A DNA stretch of 63,537 nt, filler included, from Octopus bimaculoides (Eukaryota), in NCBI RefSeq assembly GCF_001194135.2. It is 8 parts of 8 records of this genome, joined end to end, with 100 filler letters (N's around TTAATTAATTAA, not from the genome) between each part and the next. Parts side by side here need not be neighbours in the genome. Positions count along the whole stretch, not along the records: positions 1 to 20,450 come from NC_068987.1; positions 20,551 to 35,344 come from NC_068994.1; positions 35,445 to 42,143 come from NC_069004.1; positions 42,244 to 53,405 come from NC_068996.1; 4 more parts are not named here. One strand, 5' to 3'. Below, in pieces: positions 19,560 through 48,331 of this stretch (position 1 is its first letter; each line of letters starts with the position of its first letter). Both the position numbers and the translations under genes were made by a program. Under the pieces are notes generated by a model that was not told the origin of the DNA, searched no databases, and saw nothing but the letters and a program-made list of their open reading frames with translations.

Positions 19560-20330
19560 TGTTGTGCGGACAAAATCTTCCTATACTCACTCAGGACCCG
19601 AAAATGAACAGCATCCTAAATAAACACAAATTACTAAAATGTAAAAGACAAGACAAATCATTCAAGTGACTCCTTACAAATGCAAAACTCTACTCAATAC
19701 ATACAACACCAACAGTTAAAAAATGCAGACGACCCAATTGTGGTACATGCCCACACCTACGTGAAGGCTCGCAATTCACATTCCAGCAAGAACAAAAAGT
19801 CTCTATCAAAACTACCTTCACATGTTCCTCCGACAACCTTATCTATGTCCTAACCTGCTCAGGTTGTGGCCATAACTATGTAGGCCAAACGAGCCTTTCT
19901 TTGAGACGCAGAGTCACGGTGCATCAGGAACAGATTCGCTTCTCCCAGTACAGGCGTGATCAAACGCCGAAGTTCTTTATCTTTCCCCTGTACCAGTGCA
20001 AAGATTCAATTTCAGTGAAGGAACGACTAAATAAAGAGAACGTATTCATTCAAAAATATAAGCCACACCTCAATATTCAGACATGACAACCCCAGAAACG
20101 ATACTAAGTAATCAGTTATCCCCCTCGACACCCATTACCTCCCTTGGTTCACTCTCTAAATCCTTTCTTATTTTTCAAACAACCAAGATGGCGAAAGCCC
20201 CTCATCATGCGAATTAATCACTACACAATACCCCTTGAAAAGCTAATTTAAATAGCGAAAACCGGTTGGATTTTACAACACCCATTTAATATGTATATAT
20301 TTATATTAAAAAAATATTAAACTATGCGAA
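19560..20330 (+). mobile_element. Penelope-like element 3' end: GIY-YIG endonuclease fragment plus pseudo-LTR
   Basis: Translation CSGCGHNYVGQTSLSLRRRVTVHQEQIR...FFIFPLYQC...RLNKENVFIQKYKPHLN* is a PLE GIY-YIG domain. Confidence 0.85.
20233..20269 (+). ncRNA. Hammerhead variant (U3-A8 core) in the Penelope pseudo-LTR
   Basis: CC TTGAAAA GCTA-atttaaa-TAGC GAAA(A) CCGG TT GG. Perfect 4-bp stem II and palindromic ACCGGT; one extra A and a short stem I. Lies ~150 bp after the GIY-YIG stop. Confidence 0.55.
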
Positions 20331-20418
20331 ACGAAGGCATTTTTCTTCATTTTTCTTTACATATTTTCAACTCATAATTTCACCACGTGTTGTGTACTGA
20401 ATCTCCAGTATTCTTGCT

Positions 20419-20450
<32 letters not shown>

Positions 20451-20550
20451 NNNNNNNNNNNNNNNNNNNNNNNNNNNNNNNNNNNNNNNNNNNNTTAATT
20501 AATTAANNNNNNNNNNNNNNNNNNNNNNNNNNNNNNNNNNNNNNNNNNNN
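20451..20550. other. Scaffold-join linker N44-TTAATTAATTAA-N44; also at 35345, 42144, 53406, 56010, 59452 and 61404
   Basis: An identical 12-mer (stops in all six frames) inside 100-bp N blocks, seven times. Confidence 0.95.
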
Positions 20551-20809
20551 TAGAACAATTAATTGTATTTTATTGAATTACAATTATTCAGTATTTGTGG
20601 TTACTAAGTTCATTCTACACTCATGTGAAGTGAACCCACCATGTAGCACCTTGAGCAAGTGTTTACACACATGCACATGTATGTATGTGTGAATTGATAT
20701 ATGTATATACACATATGTACATATTTGCATACACACATACATACGCATATGTGTAAATACACACACACACACACATATGTATATATATATATGTATGTGT
20801 GTGTATATG

Positions 20810-21012
20810 TTTGTGTGTCTGTTTGTTCCCCCAGCATCGCTTGACAACCGATGCTGGTGTGTTTGCATCCCCGTAACTTAGCGGCTCGGCAAAAGAGGCC
20901 GATAGAATAAGTACTAGGCTTACAAAGAATAAGCTCTGGGGTCGATTTGCTTGACTATAAAGGCGGTGCTCCTTCATGGCTGCAGTCAATTGACTGAAAC
21001 AAGTAAAAGAGT
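20810..21012 (+). mobile_element. SINE body/tail (Nin-type family); further copies at 27545-27700, 29915-30120, 39750-39940, 63285-63480
   Basis: GCTTGACAACCGATGCTGGTGTGTTT...CCCCGTAACTTAGCGG...GATAGAATAAGTACTAGGC...GGGGTCGATT...CAGCATGGCC...GACTGAAACAAGTAAAAGA recurs many times. Confidence 0.85.
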
Positions 21013-21029
21013 AAGAGTAAAAGAGTATA

Positions 21030-44645: not shown

Positions 44646-44671
44646 ATATATTTATAACACACACATACATA

Positions 44672-44748
<77 letters not shown>

Positions 44749-44959
44749 AGAGATATACAATTATAAATATATTTATATACATAACAAAAATATACGATTT
44801 AATTTATCATTAGACCTTGAAATATATGAGGTGTAATTATATTAAACTTAATTGTTGTTTTTCTTCTCAGTCAGCTAAAAATGTACTAAGTCTACATTAA
44901 TATGTATTTAAGATAATCCCTGTATGTTGTTTAATAAAGCGATAGCCAAGAATCAGGTC

Positions 44960-46080
44960 ATCCCATAAGTAATGTCCGAATTTTAAATAAGGAAAACAAG
45001 TAATCAGATCTTACATTTTAATGAAACTTAATCGTCAGTATAGTTTCCATGATTATCTATGACACCTTTCCGTCTACTGGTAAGGTTTTTAATCCTATTA
45101 GTGAAAACCTTGTTCGGTTTCGAAGAGAACTCTGACAGGTCAGTTTCGACTTCTTCAGTTGCTTCAAGAGTTAATCCACCCAAATGATTCTGTAAACTAC
45201 GGAACAAATGGTAATCTGAAGGAGTAAGATCTGTAGATTAAGGCGGATGAGCAATTTTTTCTCTGCCAGCTTCCGCGATCTCTCTATGACGTGATCTTTG
45301 CTAAAGCAGGCCTTTCTTTTTTTTCTTCAAAGTTGCGTTCAAGCGCTCTAATTGCTGACAGGAGATTTGAGTATTGATTGTTGCATTAGTTGATAGTAAC
45401 TGGATGACATCTTTGCAATCCCACCAAACATGGAGTTCACTTTCCGGTTGCAGTTGGGCCTTTTACCCTTCTATAAGCCTATGTCTATGACGCTTAATAT
45501 TTTCATGAAAGACCCACTTTTCCTCACCAGTCACCAGTCTGTCCAAAAAGGGTGAGATGAGTTCACAAAAACGAAGAGAAGAGCTGATTTCCACTCGGGA
45601 TTTGCGGTTGGTTTCAGACAAATCATGAGGTACTCATTTTCTGAGTTTTGGGACCTTTCCAAGCTGTTGAAGATGGCGGTGAACAGTTGTATGGTTTGAA
45701 CGAAGCTAGCTTACCAAAGTTCTTCAACTGAAACTGTATGATCTTTTTCAAGTTCTGCCAAATGGAGCTTGTCCTCAAACCCAATTGGACGCCCTGTTCG
45801 GGCTTCATCTTCAAGCCTGAAATCTCCACATCTGAATTTTACAAACCATCTTCTGCCAGTTCTTTCATTCAGGAACTTTTCTCCATAAGCTGAGTGAATA
45901 TTTCCAGTCGCTTCACCTGCAGAATTCCCTTGTTTTGAAACTCAGAAAGCATTATGTGCCTGAAATACTCCTTAGACACTTCTATGTTTGAAGAGCTATA
46001 ATTAATAAAATGTCAATTACATTATCCGGCAAAATTAAATGTAATTAGTTTAAATATGTCCAAATACATATATTAGTTGA
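44960..46080 (-). mobile_element. Near-full-length decayed mariner transposon
   Basis: GDFRLEDEARTGRP, VPHDLSETN, LDRLVTGEEKWVFHEN, VWWDCK and HPP*STDLTPSDYHLFRSLQNHL motifs on the minus strand. Confidence 0.9.
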
Positions 46081-48285
46081 TGATATTAGACATTGTAAAA
46101 TACTGTTAAAGCGTTTACAAATTGAAAATATGGAAGTTCAAAACATTTTCCGTATTTGAATTTTTAAAGATCTTTTAAATTTTACGTTATCTCTTTTATT
46201 TTACAGAGGTTTTGTATTGATTCTTTGTATTACGAGTACCAGAGCTCCAGATCTAATTCATACTTTGAATGTTTTATATTCGGTGAATAAAATTTAATGC
46301 GGTATGCTTCCTGCCTTACTTTCTTGCTCTACACACTAAATCGGCCTTTATCACTCTCTTAATTGGACCAATATGACATTTTTCGTCTTCACAGATTGAA
46401 AAGTACGTGAAATCCATAACGATCACAAATTTTAGTAGTACAATTTTCCTACTTTATATGTTACAAGTGGTGAAGGCGCAATGGCCCAGTGGTTAGCCTG
46501 CTAGCCTTGGCTATGTCAAGGTGGATTTTCATGTCTTCTTCTTCCCACTTGGATTTTAAATGTTGCCACAATTATATGTCTAGTCTACTGTAATTTTCTA
46601 CATTTTTGTGCAGCTGAAGATTGCTCTGCATATTGCATTTAATGTAATGCTCGCATAACTTAAATAAATGGAGTAGCATGAAACGTGCGTACTGCAGTAA
46701 TCTTTAAAATCCACATTGCTTATTTTGATTTTTTGATCACCTTGCTTTTAGTATGGTTTTTGGATAATACCATACTATATTCTGGTGCCTAAACATAAGT
46801 ACCATATTCAATTTTGAATCTAAATCTAAATCTTATATATATNNNNNNNNNNNNNNNNNNNNNNNNNNNNNNNNNNNNNNNNNNNNNNNNNNNNNNNNNN
46901 NNNNNNNNNNNNNNNNNNNNNNNNNNNNNNNNNNNNNNNNNNNNNNNNNNNNNNNNNNNNNNNNNNNNNNNNNNNNNNNNNNNNNNNNNNNNNNNNNNNN
47001 NNNNNNNNNNNNNNNNNNNNNNNNNNNNNNNNNNNNNNNNNNNNNNNNNNNNNNNNNNNNNNNNNNNNNNNNNNNNNNNNNNNNNNNNNNNNNNNNNNNN
47101 NNNNNNNNNNNNNNNNNNNNNNNNNNNNNNNNNNNNNNNNNNNNNNNNNNNNNNNNNNNNNNNNNNNNNNNNNNNNNNNNNNNNNNNNNNNNNNNNNNNN
47201 NNNNNNNNNNNNNNNNNNNNNNNNNNNNNNNNNNNNNNNNNNNNNNNNNNNNNNNNNNNNNNNNNNNNNNNNNNNNNNNNNNNNNNNNNNNNNNNNNNNN
47301 NNNNNNNNNNNNNNNNNNNNNNNNNNNNNNNNNNNNNNNNNNNNNNNNNNNNNNNNNNNNNNNNNNNNNNNNNNNNNNNNNNNNNNNNNNNNNNNNNNNN
47401 NNNNNNNNNNNNNNNNNNNNNNNNNNNNNNNNNNNNNNNNNNNNNNNNNNNNNNNNNNNNNNNNNNNNNNNNNNNNNNNNNNNNNNNNNNNNNNNNNNNN
47501 NNNNNNNNNNNNNNNNNNNNNNNNNNNNNNNNNNNNNNNNNNNNNNNNNNNNNNNNNNNNNNNNNNNNNNNNNNNGTTATTCTTTTACTTACTTCAGTCA
47601 TTTGACTGCGACCGTGCTGGAGCACCACCTTTAGTCGAACAATTCAACCCCAGGATTTATTCCTTGTAAGCCTAGTACTTATTCTATCGGTCACTTTTTT
47701 GCCGAACCGCCAGATTACAGAGACGTAAACCAACATTGGTTGTCAATCAATGGTGGAGGAACAAACCCGGACACACAAATATATATACATACACACACAC
47801 ACACATATATATGCGATGGGCTTCTTTCACTTTCCACCTACCAAATCCACTCACAACGCTTTGTTCGGCCCGAGACTATAGCAGAAGATACTTGCCCAAG
47901 GTACCACGCAGTGGGACAGAACCCTGAACAATGTGGTTAGGAAGCAAGCTACTTACCACGTAGCAACGCCTACACCTACATGTTAATATAAAAAGGCGGC
48001 GAGGTGGTAGAGACGTAAGCATGCCGGGCGAATGCTTAGCGGTATCTCGTGTGACTTAACGTTCTTAGTTCAAATTCAGCCGATGTCGACTTTGCCTATC
48101 ACCCTTTCGGGGTCGATAAATTAATTACCAGTTGCATACTGGGGTCGATCTAATCAACTGGCACTTCACCAAAATTTCGAGCCTTGTGCCTAGAGTAGAA
48201 AAGAATATTTAGCAAAAGTAACCTTGACTCATAGTCATGGTAATAAATATATTTCCCGAAATTCACAGGTCTTCCTCCTGGAACT

Positions 48286-48331
48286 AGTTTGGTAAGTGCC
48301 AACGCACGAAACTCTCGGACATTGAGTCATT
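48286..48331 (+). ncRNA. Hammerhead-like motif, U3-A8 type with additional A6G change
   Basis: AGT TTGGTAA GTGC-caac-GCAC GAAA CTC-tcggacatt-GAG TC ATT. Perfect 4-bp stems II and III, GUC triplet, 3-bp stem I. Confidence 0.55.

What the first reader, a model, noticed from the sequence alone, without database searches (positions are those of the whole stretch)
20233..48331. Three unrelated motifs share the compensatory U3-A8 core (UUGAnAA) instead of C3-G8
Seen: TTGAAAA (20235, +), TTGATAA (35172-35178, -) and TTGGTAA (48289, +), each followed by its own paired stem II and GAAA. Established: positions 3 and 8 form a Watson-Crick pair in the active hammerhead. Inference: a double change recurring in different sequence contexts is covariation rather than decay, i.e. 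an AT-adapted hammerhead class invisible to CUGANGA searches.
Basis: partly seen in the sequence, partly recalled or inferred. Interest (0 to 1): 0.72.

Follow-up and report, generated by a model that had tools for sequence, protein, structure and literature searches.

The report
Penelope-type mini hammerheads, U3-A8 core
Two of the three motifs are hammerhead-shaped RNA motifs of the small Penelope-retrotransposon type whose usual core C-G pair is a U-A pair, a variant in print since 2011, and they would cut only if the untested ribozyme is active; the third motif looks like chance.

Summary
Sites 1 (20235, +) and 2 (35178-35172, -) are as described: UUGAnAA, a paired stem II, then GAAA. Site 3 (48289) reads UUGGUAA. 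It has G at the invariant A6, so it does not fit the title's own pattern.

However, both continue with GAAA(A)CCGGUU, a palindromic helix III. A fuller mini-hammerhead descriptor finds 4 motifs in the window against 0.059 expected.

Site 1 lies 150 nt behind a GIY-YIG endonuclease ORF of a 5'-truncated Penelope-like element. Site 2 lies in a very abundant repeat. Contigs from three related species carry both blocks. At site 2, positions 3 and 8 are fixed in DNA. The only core positions seen to vary are N7 and H17, which the hammerhead consensus leaves free.

So U3-A8 is the family state, not decay, at site 2; at site 1 this is inferred. The two sites share one architecture, so independent origin is not shown. 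The variant is already published (Perreault 2011; Cervera and de la Pena 2014, about 1,300 hits in Schistosoma). Earlier notes of this scan report it on other octopus DNA. Cleavage is untested.

Verdict: a new member of a known kind.

The parts
19670..20086 (+). C-terminal GIY-YIG endonuclease ORF (138 aa, with a CX5CX2C linker) of a 5'-truncated Penelope-like element
   Evidence: Pfam PF01541 GIY-YIG, E 1.3e-7, 32.3 bits against a cut-off of 22.6. There are 14 longer relatives with E <= 1e-5. P0003 (772 aa) has RVT_1 at 257-443 and GIY-YIG at 679-767. No RT is found upstream in the window.
20087..20229 (+). 3' untranslated tail of the Penelope-like element, between the stop codon and the hammerhead motif
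   Evidence: Contigs bridge the ORF end and the motif block. Examples are X14 record 14 (20043-20296), X1 record 7 (20057-20219) and X14 record 15 (20115-20313).
20230..20271 (+). Site 1, a mini hammerhead-like motif with a U3-A8 core. Helix I 5' strand 20230-33 (GUCC in most copies, ACCC here), extra C at 20234, UUGAAAA 20235-41, stem II 20242-56, GAAA 20257-60, A-CCGG-UU 20261-67, GGAU 20268-71.
   Evidence: Letters. The depth peak of the repeat family falls in bins 20216-20271 (X1 24,506 to 51,083; elsewhere 647 to 20,070). Family loose ends lie at 20271. 20230 A>G is in 86% and 20231 C>T in 73% of X1 depth. The register is ambiguous: G17 with the 8-nt palindrome AACCGGUU, or U17 with a bulged C before U3.
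35124..35182 (-). Site 2, a mini hammerhead motif with a U3-A8 core plus a 3' tail. ACUU 35182-79, UUGAUAA 35178-72, U 35171, CUUUUU 35170-65, CUA 35164-62, AAAAAG 35161-56, U 35155, GAAA 35154-51, CCGG 35150-47, U16.1 35146, U17 35145, AAGU 35144-41, tail to about 35124.
   Evidence: Letters. 1248 X1 contigs were laid, with summed depth about 800,000 to 1,030,000. Relatives X14 and X15 share only about 35125-35182. Block borders are marked by loose ends at 35182 (25/24/10) and 35123 (19/23/5). DNA variants of 5% or more inside the motif, among rows shown, are only 35174 (N7) and 35145 (H17).
35183..35344 (-). Upstream body of the abundant ORF-less repeat that carries site 2. It runs into a scaffold linker gap.
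   Evidence: High depth continues to about 35256 in X1. Many copies lack 35183-35252, shown by loose ends at 35182 and 35254. The N44-TTAATTAATTAA-N44 linker sits at 35345-35444. No Pfam domain is found.
48289..48331 (+). Site 3. UUGGUAA (G6), stem II GUGC/GCAC, GAAA, stem III ACUC/GAGU, C17, helix I of only 3 bp. Not a hammerhead by the tests run here.
   Evidence: Letters. No Rfam hit at E <= 10. 17 of 95 comparable modules match the core at least as well. The lowest-energy fold pairs it differently.
48204..48354 (.). Fold-back of about 150 nt that contains site 3. Family unknown.
   Evidence: Minimum free energy -43.2 kcal/mol against a shuffle mean of -24.9, z = -5.27, and 0 of 200 shuffles fold as well. 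A 14-nt perfect inverted repeat joins 48204-17 and 48339-52. No second copy is in the window.
7491..7533 (-). Mini hammerhead-like motif of the same architecture with the canonical C3-G8 core. CUGAUGA, GAACC/GGUUC, GAAA, A-UCGA-UU, A17, helix I of 4 bp.
   Evidence: It is not found by Rfam even at E <= 10.
34865..34906 (+). Fourth descriptor hit, with a U3-G8 wobble core. UUGAGGA, A, AUUACA/UGUAGU, GAAA, palindrome AAAUAUUU. It may be chance.
   Evidence: The palindrome is all A and U, and helix I is mostly G-U pairs. The RT fragment upstream at 33511-33858 has a weak RVT_1 match and LINE-like motifs by my own reading.

Best explanation
Sites 1 and 2 are hammerhead-shaped motifs of the minimal Penelope-like-element type in which the core pair is U3-A8 instead of C3-G8, and they are predicted, not shown, to self-cleave.

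Shown:
- Site 1 sits about 150 nt behind the GIY-YIG endonuclease ORF of a 5'-truncated Penelope-like element, on the same strand.
- Site 2 sits near the 3' end of a very abundant ORF-less repeat.
- Both motif blocks recur in contigs of three related species.
- In the site 2 family the core is fixed in DNA except at N7 and H17.

Inferred:
- The RNA would cut after position 17.
- Cutting would occur mainly when two copies pair through the palindromic ACCGGU / AACCGGUU to build helix III, as proposed for Penelope mini hammerheads. This would trim tandem or read-through transcripts to unit length.
- The site 2 repeat would be copied by a Penelope-like reverse transcriptase.

Site 3 is most likely a chance look-alike inside an unrelated fold-back.
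For: Architecture. Both sites have the core, stem II, GAAA and a palindrome starting at A15.1. Site 2 also has a 4-bp helix I next to the core (ACUU/AAGU) and an unpaired base after A9. Cervera and de la Pena 2014 describe this layout for Penelope mini hammerheads: helix I of 4-5 bp, a large helix II, an unpaired base at the 5' end of stem II, and a palindromic 15.2-16.2 or loop 3.

Statistics. Descriptor hits are 4 against 0.059 expected (0 of 1000 shuffles reach 3). With helix I they are 3 against 0.003. GAAA(A)CCGGTT occurs only at these two sites.

Host element. GIY-YIG ORF at 19670-20086. Longer relatives have RT plus a C-terminal GIY-YIG. Contigs bridge the ORF end and the motif.

Family state. 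769, 1024 and 607 contigs (site 1 stretch) and 1248, 297 and 118 contigs (site 2 stretch) were laid from three organisms. At site 2:
- A8 varies in 0.03% of DNA depth and A9 in 0.01%. No row appears for U3.
- N7 is U>C in 8.6%, 81% and 70% of depth.
- H17 is U>C in 5.9%, 19.5% and 16% of depth.

Comparison of the two sites. Stems I and II differ in every letter between sites 1 and 2 yet pair in both.

Dimer. Cofolds predict an intermolecular CCGG helix: -16.5 against -6.8 kcal/mol for site 2, and -17.3 against -8.2 for site 1.

Literature. Perreault et al. 2011 report natural U3-A8 covariation and cite earlier in vitro work showing that such variants are active.
Against: No hammerhead family of Rfam matches either site, even at E <= 10 in 191-nt scans. 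The same is true of the canonical-core motif at 7503, so this weighs little.

Site 2 lacks the conserved G10.1-C11.1 pair. Its stem II is flanked by U and U, with C-G as the first pair.

Site 1 has G at position 17 in the palindromic register. Otherwise it needs a bulged C before U3. The window's own copy has a C-A mismatch in helix I.

The hammerhead fold is not the lowest-energy fold of either site. Z-scores are 0.75 and 0.48.

RNA reads over both stretches show no pile-up of ends at the predicted cut (table 6 'none').

Published Penelope mini hammerheads cut poorly in vitro.

For site 1, 139 of 179 variant rows were not shown, so minor C3 or G8 copies cannot be excluded. For site 2, 16 rows were not shown.
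Confidence: 0.7

Rival explanations
1. The blocks derive from hammerheads but no longer cut. They would be kept because the palindrome and tail serve another step of Penelope-type retrotransposition, such as template recognition or priming by the reverse transcriptase, or RNA dimerisation.
For: The motifs deviate at G10.1-C11.1 (site 2) and at position 17 or the helix I junction (site 1). RNA ends do not cluster at the predicted cut. Penelope mini hammerheads have low activity in vitro. Naiad elements thrive without hammerheads (PMC8557442 passages). The conserved block at site 2 runs 21 nt beyond the motif.
Against: Within the site 2 motif, the DNA variation shown falls on N7 and H17. These are the two positions the hammerhead consensus leaves free, which fits a catalytic constraint. 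Sites 1 and 2 keep the core letters while stems I and II are fully replaced.
Confidence: 0.22
2. All three motifs are chance matches in AT-rich DNA.
For: For site 3, 17 of 95 comparable modules match the core at least as well, and Rfam gives nothing.
Against: For sites 1 and 2: the fuller descriptor gives 4 against 0.059. The extended GAAA(A)CCGGTT is shared. Site 1 sits behind a Penelope endonuclease ORF. Both blocks are high-copy and conserved in three species.
Confidence: 0.05
3. Site 3 is a decayed copy of a canonical type I hammerhead with a real stem III. It would have taken three transitions in the core (C3>U, A6>G, G8>A) and would lie in a head-to-head Penelope-type stump.
For: It has G10.1-C11.1, a 4-bp stem II, GAAAC, a 4-bp stem III and a GUC cleavage triplet. 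It lies in a strong fold-back. Earlier notes of this scan describe hairpin stumps of this kind in the same genome.
Against: There is no family evidence: no copy in the window and no reads were laid on it. Helix I is only 3 bp. The module plus core match is not better than chance.
Confidence: 0.25

Closest known systems
U3-A8 minimal hammerheads in the pseudo-LTRs of Cercyon Penelope-like elements of Schistosoma mansoni (Cervera and de la Pena 2014, PMC4209133)
   Same: U3-A8 core. Short helix I of 4 bp. Long helix II. An unpaired base after A9 (site 2). A palindromic helix III region that implies action as a dimer. Location at the end of a Penelope-like element with a GIY-YIG endonuclease (site 1). 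Very many dispersed single copies.
   Different: The host is an octopus-like genome, named so only by earlier notes and by one cephalopod protein name. At site 2 the conserved G10.1-C11.1 is replaced by U/U flanks and a C-G pair. Site 1 has G at 17 or a bulged C. The loop III palindrome is CCGG. Cleavage was not assayed here.
Natural U3-A8 covariation in hammerheads, mainly type II of phages and bacteria (Perreault et al. 2011, PMC3088659)
   Same: The same compensatory exchange of the C3-G8 core pair. The paper cites earlier in vitro work showing that such variants are active.
   Different: Those are complete three-helix ribozymes, mostly in prokaryotes and phages. These are minimal type I motifs in animal retroelements.
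Metazoan non-LTR retrozymes with type I hammerheads (Cervera and de la Pena 2020, PMC7229834, passages read)
   Same: Site 2's host is a short, AT-rich, ORF-less, very high-copy repeat that is transcribed. That paper proposes Penelope-like elements as the helpers of such repeats.
   Different: No tandem unit, circular RNA or full unit length could be shown here, because the copy runs into an assembly gap. The hammerhead is of the minimal Penelope type, not the classical type I with loop-loop contacts.
G17 hammerhead variants (Kalweit and Hammann 2013, PMC3884650)
   Same: In its palindromic register, site 1 has G at the cleavage-site position. That paper shows G17 is tolerated in tertiary-stabilised hammerheads, with rates 8- to 100-fold lower.
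   Different: Those were engineered variants of canonical C3-G8 ribozymes. Whether U3 weakens the proposed G17-C3 trap is my inference only.

Membership tests
Hammerhead ribozyme (catalytic core) | Core C3 U4 G5 A6 N7 G8 A9 (or the documented U3-A8 covariant), and G12 A13 A14 after stem II | tested here: met
   Sites 1 and 2 read UUGAAAA / UUGAUAA ... GAAA. Site 3 does not meet it: UUGGUAA has G6.
Hammerhead ribozyme (catalytic core) | Three helices around the core, with stem II closed by G10.1-C11.1 | tested here: inconclusive
   Site 1: G-C closes stem II (4 bp). Helix III forms only through the palindrome. Helix I is 1-2 bp, or 4 bp with a bulged C in the family majority letters. Site 2: helix I is 4 bp and stem II 6 bp, but a U/U pair sits at 10.1/11.1.
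Hammerhead ribozyme (catalytic core) | Cleavage-site nucleotide 17 is not G | tested here: inconclusive
   Site 2 has U17, with C17 in 6-20% of family depth: met. Site 1 has G17 in the 8-nt palindrome register and U17 in the other register.
Hammerhead ribozyme (catalytic core) | Self-cleavage after position 17 | not testable with these tools
   RNA reads show no cluster of ends at the site. This does not settle the matter.
Minimal hammerhead of Penelope-like elements (Cervera and de la Pena 2014) | Short helix I (4-5 bp), enlarged helix II, unpaired base between A9 and 10.1 | tested here: met
   Site 2: helix I 4 bp, helix II 6 bp, unpaired U at 35171. Site 1 meets it only in part: helix II is 4 bp and there is no unpaired base.
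Minimal hammerhead of Penelope-like elements (Cervera and de la Pena 2014) | Palindromic 15.2-16.2 or loop 3, allowing a dimeric helix III | tested here: met
   ACCGGU at site 2 and AACCGGUU at site 1. Dimer cofolds use it.
Minimal hammerhead of Penelope-like elements (Cervera and de la Pena 2014) | Sits in the pseudo-LTR or tail of an element that encodes RT plus a GIY-YIG endonuclease | tested here: met
   Site 1 is 150 nt behind the GIY-YIG ORF, and contigs bridge the two. Site 2: no ORF is found and the upstream side is lost in a gap, so it is inconclusive there.
Minimal hammerhead of Penelope-like elements (Cervera and de la Pena 2014) | Large consensus families within a genome | tested here: met
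   Hundreds to more than a thousand contigs were laid per run at 80% likeness or more.
Rfam hammerhead families (types I, II, III, HH9, HH10; names recalled) | A match to a curated covariance model | tested here: not met
   The gathering-threshold scan of the window returned 0 matches to any family. The 150 rows shown of 373 at E <= 10 hold no hammerhead. The narrow scans of the three sites and of 7503 hold none either.

The most novel reading that the evidence does not exclude
The U3-A8 mini hammerhead is the working ribozyme of a hugely abundant octopus repeat, and A-to-I editing of its catalytic adenines acts as a switch on self-cleavage. RNA-only changes were read at A8 in 19 of 69 reads and at A9 in 31 of 69, against 0.03% or less in DNA. 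The host's RNA editing would thereby control a retroelement's RNA processing.
Probability: 0.08. Interest if true: 0.65.

Novelty: new member of a known kind. Interest (0 to 1): 0.3.

Why it matters
The result shows that a U3-A8 core in these repeats is a fixed family character, not decay, at site 2, and probably so at site 1. It links that core physically to a Penelope-like element in a cephalopod-type genome. My searches of the held library found no paper describing such motifs in octopus. Searches limited to CUGANGA will therefore under-count hammerheads in such genomes. The variant, its retroelement host and its dimer model are already in print, so the gain is in cataloguing, not in concept. 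The RNA-only changes in the core adenines could be followed up.

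Tried and rejected
Rfam. The gathering scan of the whole window gave 0 matches. The E-value scan was swamped by microsatellite look-alikes of miRNA families. Narrow scans of the three sites and of the canonical-core control gave no hammerhead. Because the control also failed, I do not count this as evidence against.

Whole genome. None is held for this window, so family alignments could not be built. Read laying on public contigs served as a substitute. Its two calls went to sites 1 and 2, so site 3 has no family data.

Self-BLAST of the window found no second copy of any of the three sites. One search was an unfiltered run that gave only microsatellite noise.

Earlier-findings look-ups by sequence for all three sites gave nothing.

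My first strict three-helix descriptor found only the motif at 7503, and in a doubtful type III reading.

The ORF at 18195-18896 is low-complexity translation of microsatellite, not an RT. No GIY-YIG or RT lies near site 2, site 3, 7503, 18004 or 51371.

A repeat shared by 47670-47978, 51465-51749 and 24246-24408 is, by my reading, a SINE-like element unrelated to site 3 or to the core at 51371.

Monomer folds of sites 1 and 2 are no more stable than shuffles.

No RNA holder was listed by the look-up of sequencing runs. The RNA run used (X21) was added by species label.

Full report
**What the window is.**
The window is a gap-rich draft scaffold with 34 runs of N, several of them N44-TTAATTAATTAA-N44 linkers. 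It is AT-rich and full of TA/TG microsatellites. It holds LINE-like RT fragments, mariner-type HTH domains and SINE-like repeats. No whole genome is held for it. Earlier notes of this scan call the genome an octopus rich in hammerhead-bearing repeats. The only support from my own calls is one relative of the endonuclease ORF that a source names from Argonauta hians.

**The observation.**
Site 1 reads UUGAAAA (20235-41), GCUA-AUUUAAA-UAGC, GAAA (20257-60). Site 2, on the minus strand, reads UUGAUAA (35178-72), U, CUUUUU-CUA-AAAAAG, U, GAAA (35154-51). Site 3 reads UUGGUAA (48289-95), GUGC-CAAC-GCAC, GAAA. Its position 6 is G, so it does not fit UUGAnAA.

- TTGANAA-N8-30-GAAA gives 9 against 5.69 expected, and 8 of 100 shuffles reach 9.
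- With a stem II of 4 bp or more, U3-A8 gives 2 against 0.81, and 41 of 200 shuffles reach 2.
- The canonical core is enriched: 10 against 1.92, and 3 against 0.24 with stem II.

Both U3-A8 sites continue with GAAA(A)CCGGUU. That string occurs exactly twice in the window, at these two sites, while CCGGTT occurs 15 times. ACCGGU and AACCGGUU are palindromes that start at A15.1.

This is the hallmark of animal type I and Penelope mini hammerheads. Their helix III is 1-2 bp with a small palindromic loop, or is absent, and two copies are thought to pair into one long helix III (PMC4209133).

I wrote a descriptor after seeing the sites: YUGANRA, stem II of 4 bp or more, GAAA, and a 6- or 8-nt palindrome from A15.1. 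It finds 4 motifs against 0.059 expected, and 0 of 1000 shuffles reach 3. With a helix I of 4 bp or more it finds 3 against 0.003. The four motifs are:
- site 1;
- site 2;
- a canonical C3-G8 motif at 7533-7491 (-), with GAAA-A-UCGA-UU-A;
- a U3-G8 motif at 34865 (+), whose palindrome is all A and U and which may be chance.

**Site 1 belongs to a Penelope-like element.**
The ORF at 19670-20086 (+) matches GIY-YIG (E 1.3e-7, 32.3 bits, cut-off 22.6). It carries a CX5CX2C stretch before the domain. PMC8557442 mentions a CX2-5CxxC endonuclease linker for Neptune elements.

Fourteen longer proteins match the ORF at E <= 1e-5. P0003 (772 aa) has RVT_1 at 257-443 (26.1 bits, below its cut-off of 29.6) and GIY-YIG at 679-767. 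That is the canonical RT plus C-terminal endonuclease layout. No RT lies upstream in the window, so the copy is 5'-truncated.

The motif starts about 150 nt after the stop codon, on the same strand. Published work places the hammerheads of such elements in the pseudo-LTRs near the 3' ends.

**Family data for site 1.**
On 19600-20415, 769, 1024 and 607 contigs from runs of three organisms (A, B, C) were laid at 80% likeness or more. Summed depth peaks in bins 20216-20271, which is the motif block: X1 24,506 to 51,083, against 647 to 20,070 elsewhere. Contigs bridge the ORF end and the motif (for example X14 record 14, 20043-20296). Many copies leave the window's sequence right after 20271 (10 and 11 loose ends).

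Only 40 of 179 variant rows were shown. Among them, 20230 A>G (86% of X1 depth) and 20231 C>T (73%) appear, but no row appears at 20235 (position 3) or 20240 (position 8). I therefore infer that the family majority is U3-A8. Minor variants cannot be excluded.

With the majority letters, GUCC (20230-33) can pair with GGAU (20268-71). That requires C20234 to be bulged and U20267 to be position 17. In the palindromic register, position 17 is G. Both readings depart from the textbook motif.

**Family data for site 2.**
On 35095-35265, 1248 contigs of organism A were laid, 909 of them 95% alike or more. Summed depth is about 800,000 to 1,030,000, which is 20 to 1000 times that of the site 1 stretch. 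Organisms B and C share only about 35125-35182. Loose ends mark the block borders at 35182 (25/24/10) and 35123 (19/23/5). So the shared block begins exactly with the helix I strand ACUU.

Inside the motif (35145-35182), the DNA variants of 5% or more among the rows shown (16 rows hidden) are:
- 35174, which is N7, U>C in 8.6%, 81% and 70% of depth;
- 35145, which is position 17, U>C in 5.9%, 19.5% and 16%.

A8 (35173) varies in 0.03% and A9 (35172) in 0.01% of organism A depth. No row appears for U3 (35178). Variation limited to the two positions that the hammerhead consensus leaves free is what a constraint on a hammerhead core predicts. Much of the organism A family is young, which weakens that argument within the species. 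The cross-species comparison is what carries it.

**Between the two sites.**
Stem I is GUCC/GGAU at site 1 and ACUU/AAGU at site 2. Stem II is GCUA/UAGC at site 1 and CUUUUU/AAAAAG at site 2. They share no letters yet pair in both, while the core, GAAA and CCGG-UU are the same. This is ordinary hammerhead covariation. It also means the two are variants of one architecture, so independent origin of U3-A8 is not shown. Given that loop III must be a palindrome, sharing CCGG is only weak evidence of common descent: it is 1 of 16 four-letter palindromes.

**Against a working ribozyme.**
- Rfam gives nothing, but it also misses the canonical motif at 7503.
- Site 2 lacks G10.1-C11.1.
- The register of site 1 is awkward.
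- Monomer folds are no better than shuffles. Dimer cofolds do favour the CCGG helix: -16.5 against -6.8 and -17.3 against -8.2 kcal/mol.
- RNA reads (about 70 deep at site 2) show no cluster of ends.
- Published Penelope mini hammerheads cut poorly in vitro.

**Site 3.**
Three of the six specified core positions are wrong, and helix I is 3 bp. Among 95 stem II-GAAA-stem III-UH modules in the window, 17 match the core at least as well. The motif lies in a 150-nt fold-back (z = -5.27) whose lowest-energy fold pairs it differently. It also contains GGUAAGU, a splice-donor-like string by my own knowledge. I could not get family data for it. Chance is my leading reading. A decayed canonical hammerhead in a head-to-head stump remains possible.

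**Comparison with what is known.**
Natural U3-A8 covariation was reported by Perreault et al. 2011, who cite earlier in vitro work showing that such variants are active (PMC3088659, passages). A U3-A8 mini hammerhead of Cercyon elements gave about 1,300 hits in S. mansoni (PMC4209133). My searches for hammerhead with U3-A8 or C3-G8 found one and two papers. Searches for octopus with hammerhead and Penelope-like, or with retrozyme, found no description of such motifs in octopus. Earlier notes of this scan report U3-A8 hammerheads in octopus Penelope-type repeats on other DNA. I treat those as leads only.

**Verdict.**
U3-A8 is a family state and not decay, but the motifs are not unrelated and this is not a new class.

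Noticed in passing
window 35151-35244 (RNA run X21 laid on 35095-35265): There are many RNA-only T>C differences on the + strand, which read as A>G on the motif strand. They occur at 33 places, including A9 (31 of 69 reads), A8 (19 of 69) and A15.1 (16 of 64), while DNA runs show 0.03% or less. A>G on the + strand occurs at 9 places. This looks like heavy A-to-I editing of double-stranded RNA from this repeat family. The RNA and DNA come from different samples.
   Followed up: partly
window 7491-7533 (-): A mini hammerhead-like motif with the canonical C3-G8 core and the same build as site 1 (GAAA-A-UCGA-UU, A17, 4-bp helix I). No ORF is nearby and Rfam does not find it.
   Followed up: partly
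window 34865-34906 (+): A mini hammerhead-like motif with a U3-G8 wobble core and an all-AU palindrome. It converges on site 2 about 210 nt away, across a (TA)n run at 35027-35052. It could be an intermediate core state or chance.
   Followed up: partly
window 18004-18030 (+) and 51371-51399 (-): Two more CUGANGA + stem II (5-6 bp) + GAAA strings without a recognisable helix III or palindrome. The canonical core plus stem II is enriched in the window (3 against 0.24 expected).
   Followed up: partly
window 47670-47978 (+), 51465-51749 (-), 24246-24408 (+): Three copies (76-87% alike) of a repeat of about 300 nt that I read as SINE-like, with an internal microsatellite. It is unrelated to the hammerhead motifs.
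   Followed up: partly
window 20451-20550, 35345-35444, 42144-42243, 53406-53505, 56010-56109, 59452-59551, 61404-61503: A recurrent N44-TTAATTAATTAA-N44 string. By my own knowledge this is an assembly linker with stops in all frames, not biology. It cuts off the upstream part of the site 2 repeat.
   Followed up: yes
window 26297-26324 and 61699-61726 (+): CTGAGGACATG...GAAA strings that raise the canonical-pattern count. At 61699 the string continues the reading frame of a retrotransposon-like ORF. The string at 26297 has a similar sequence. Neither has a stem II.
   Followed up: partly
window 20264 (RNA run X21): Almost all RNA reads over site 1 (26 of 27) carry U instead of G in the CCGG loop. 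This variant makes up 0.5% of DNA depth, and the cleanest read has 7 other differences. So the transcripts seen come from one or a few diverged copies, not from this locus.
   Followed up: no
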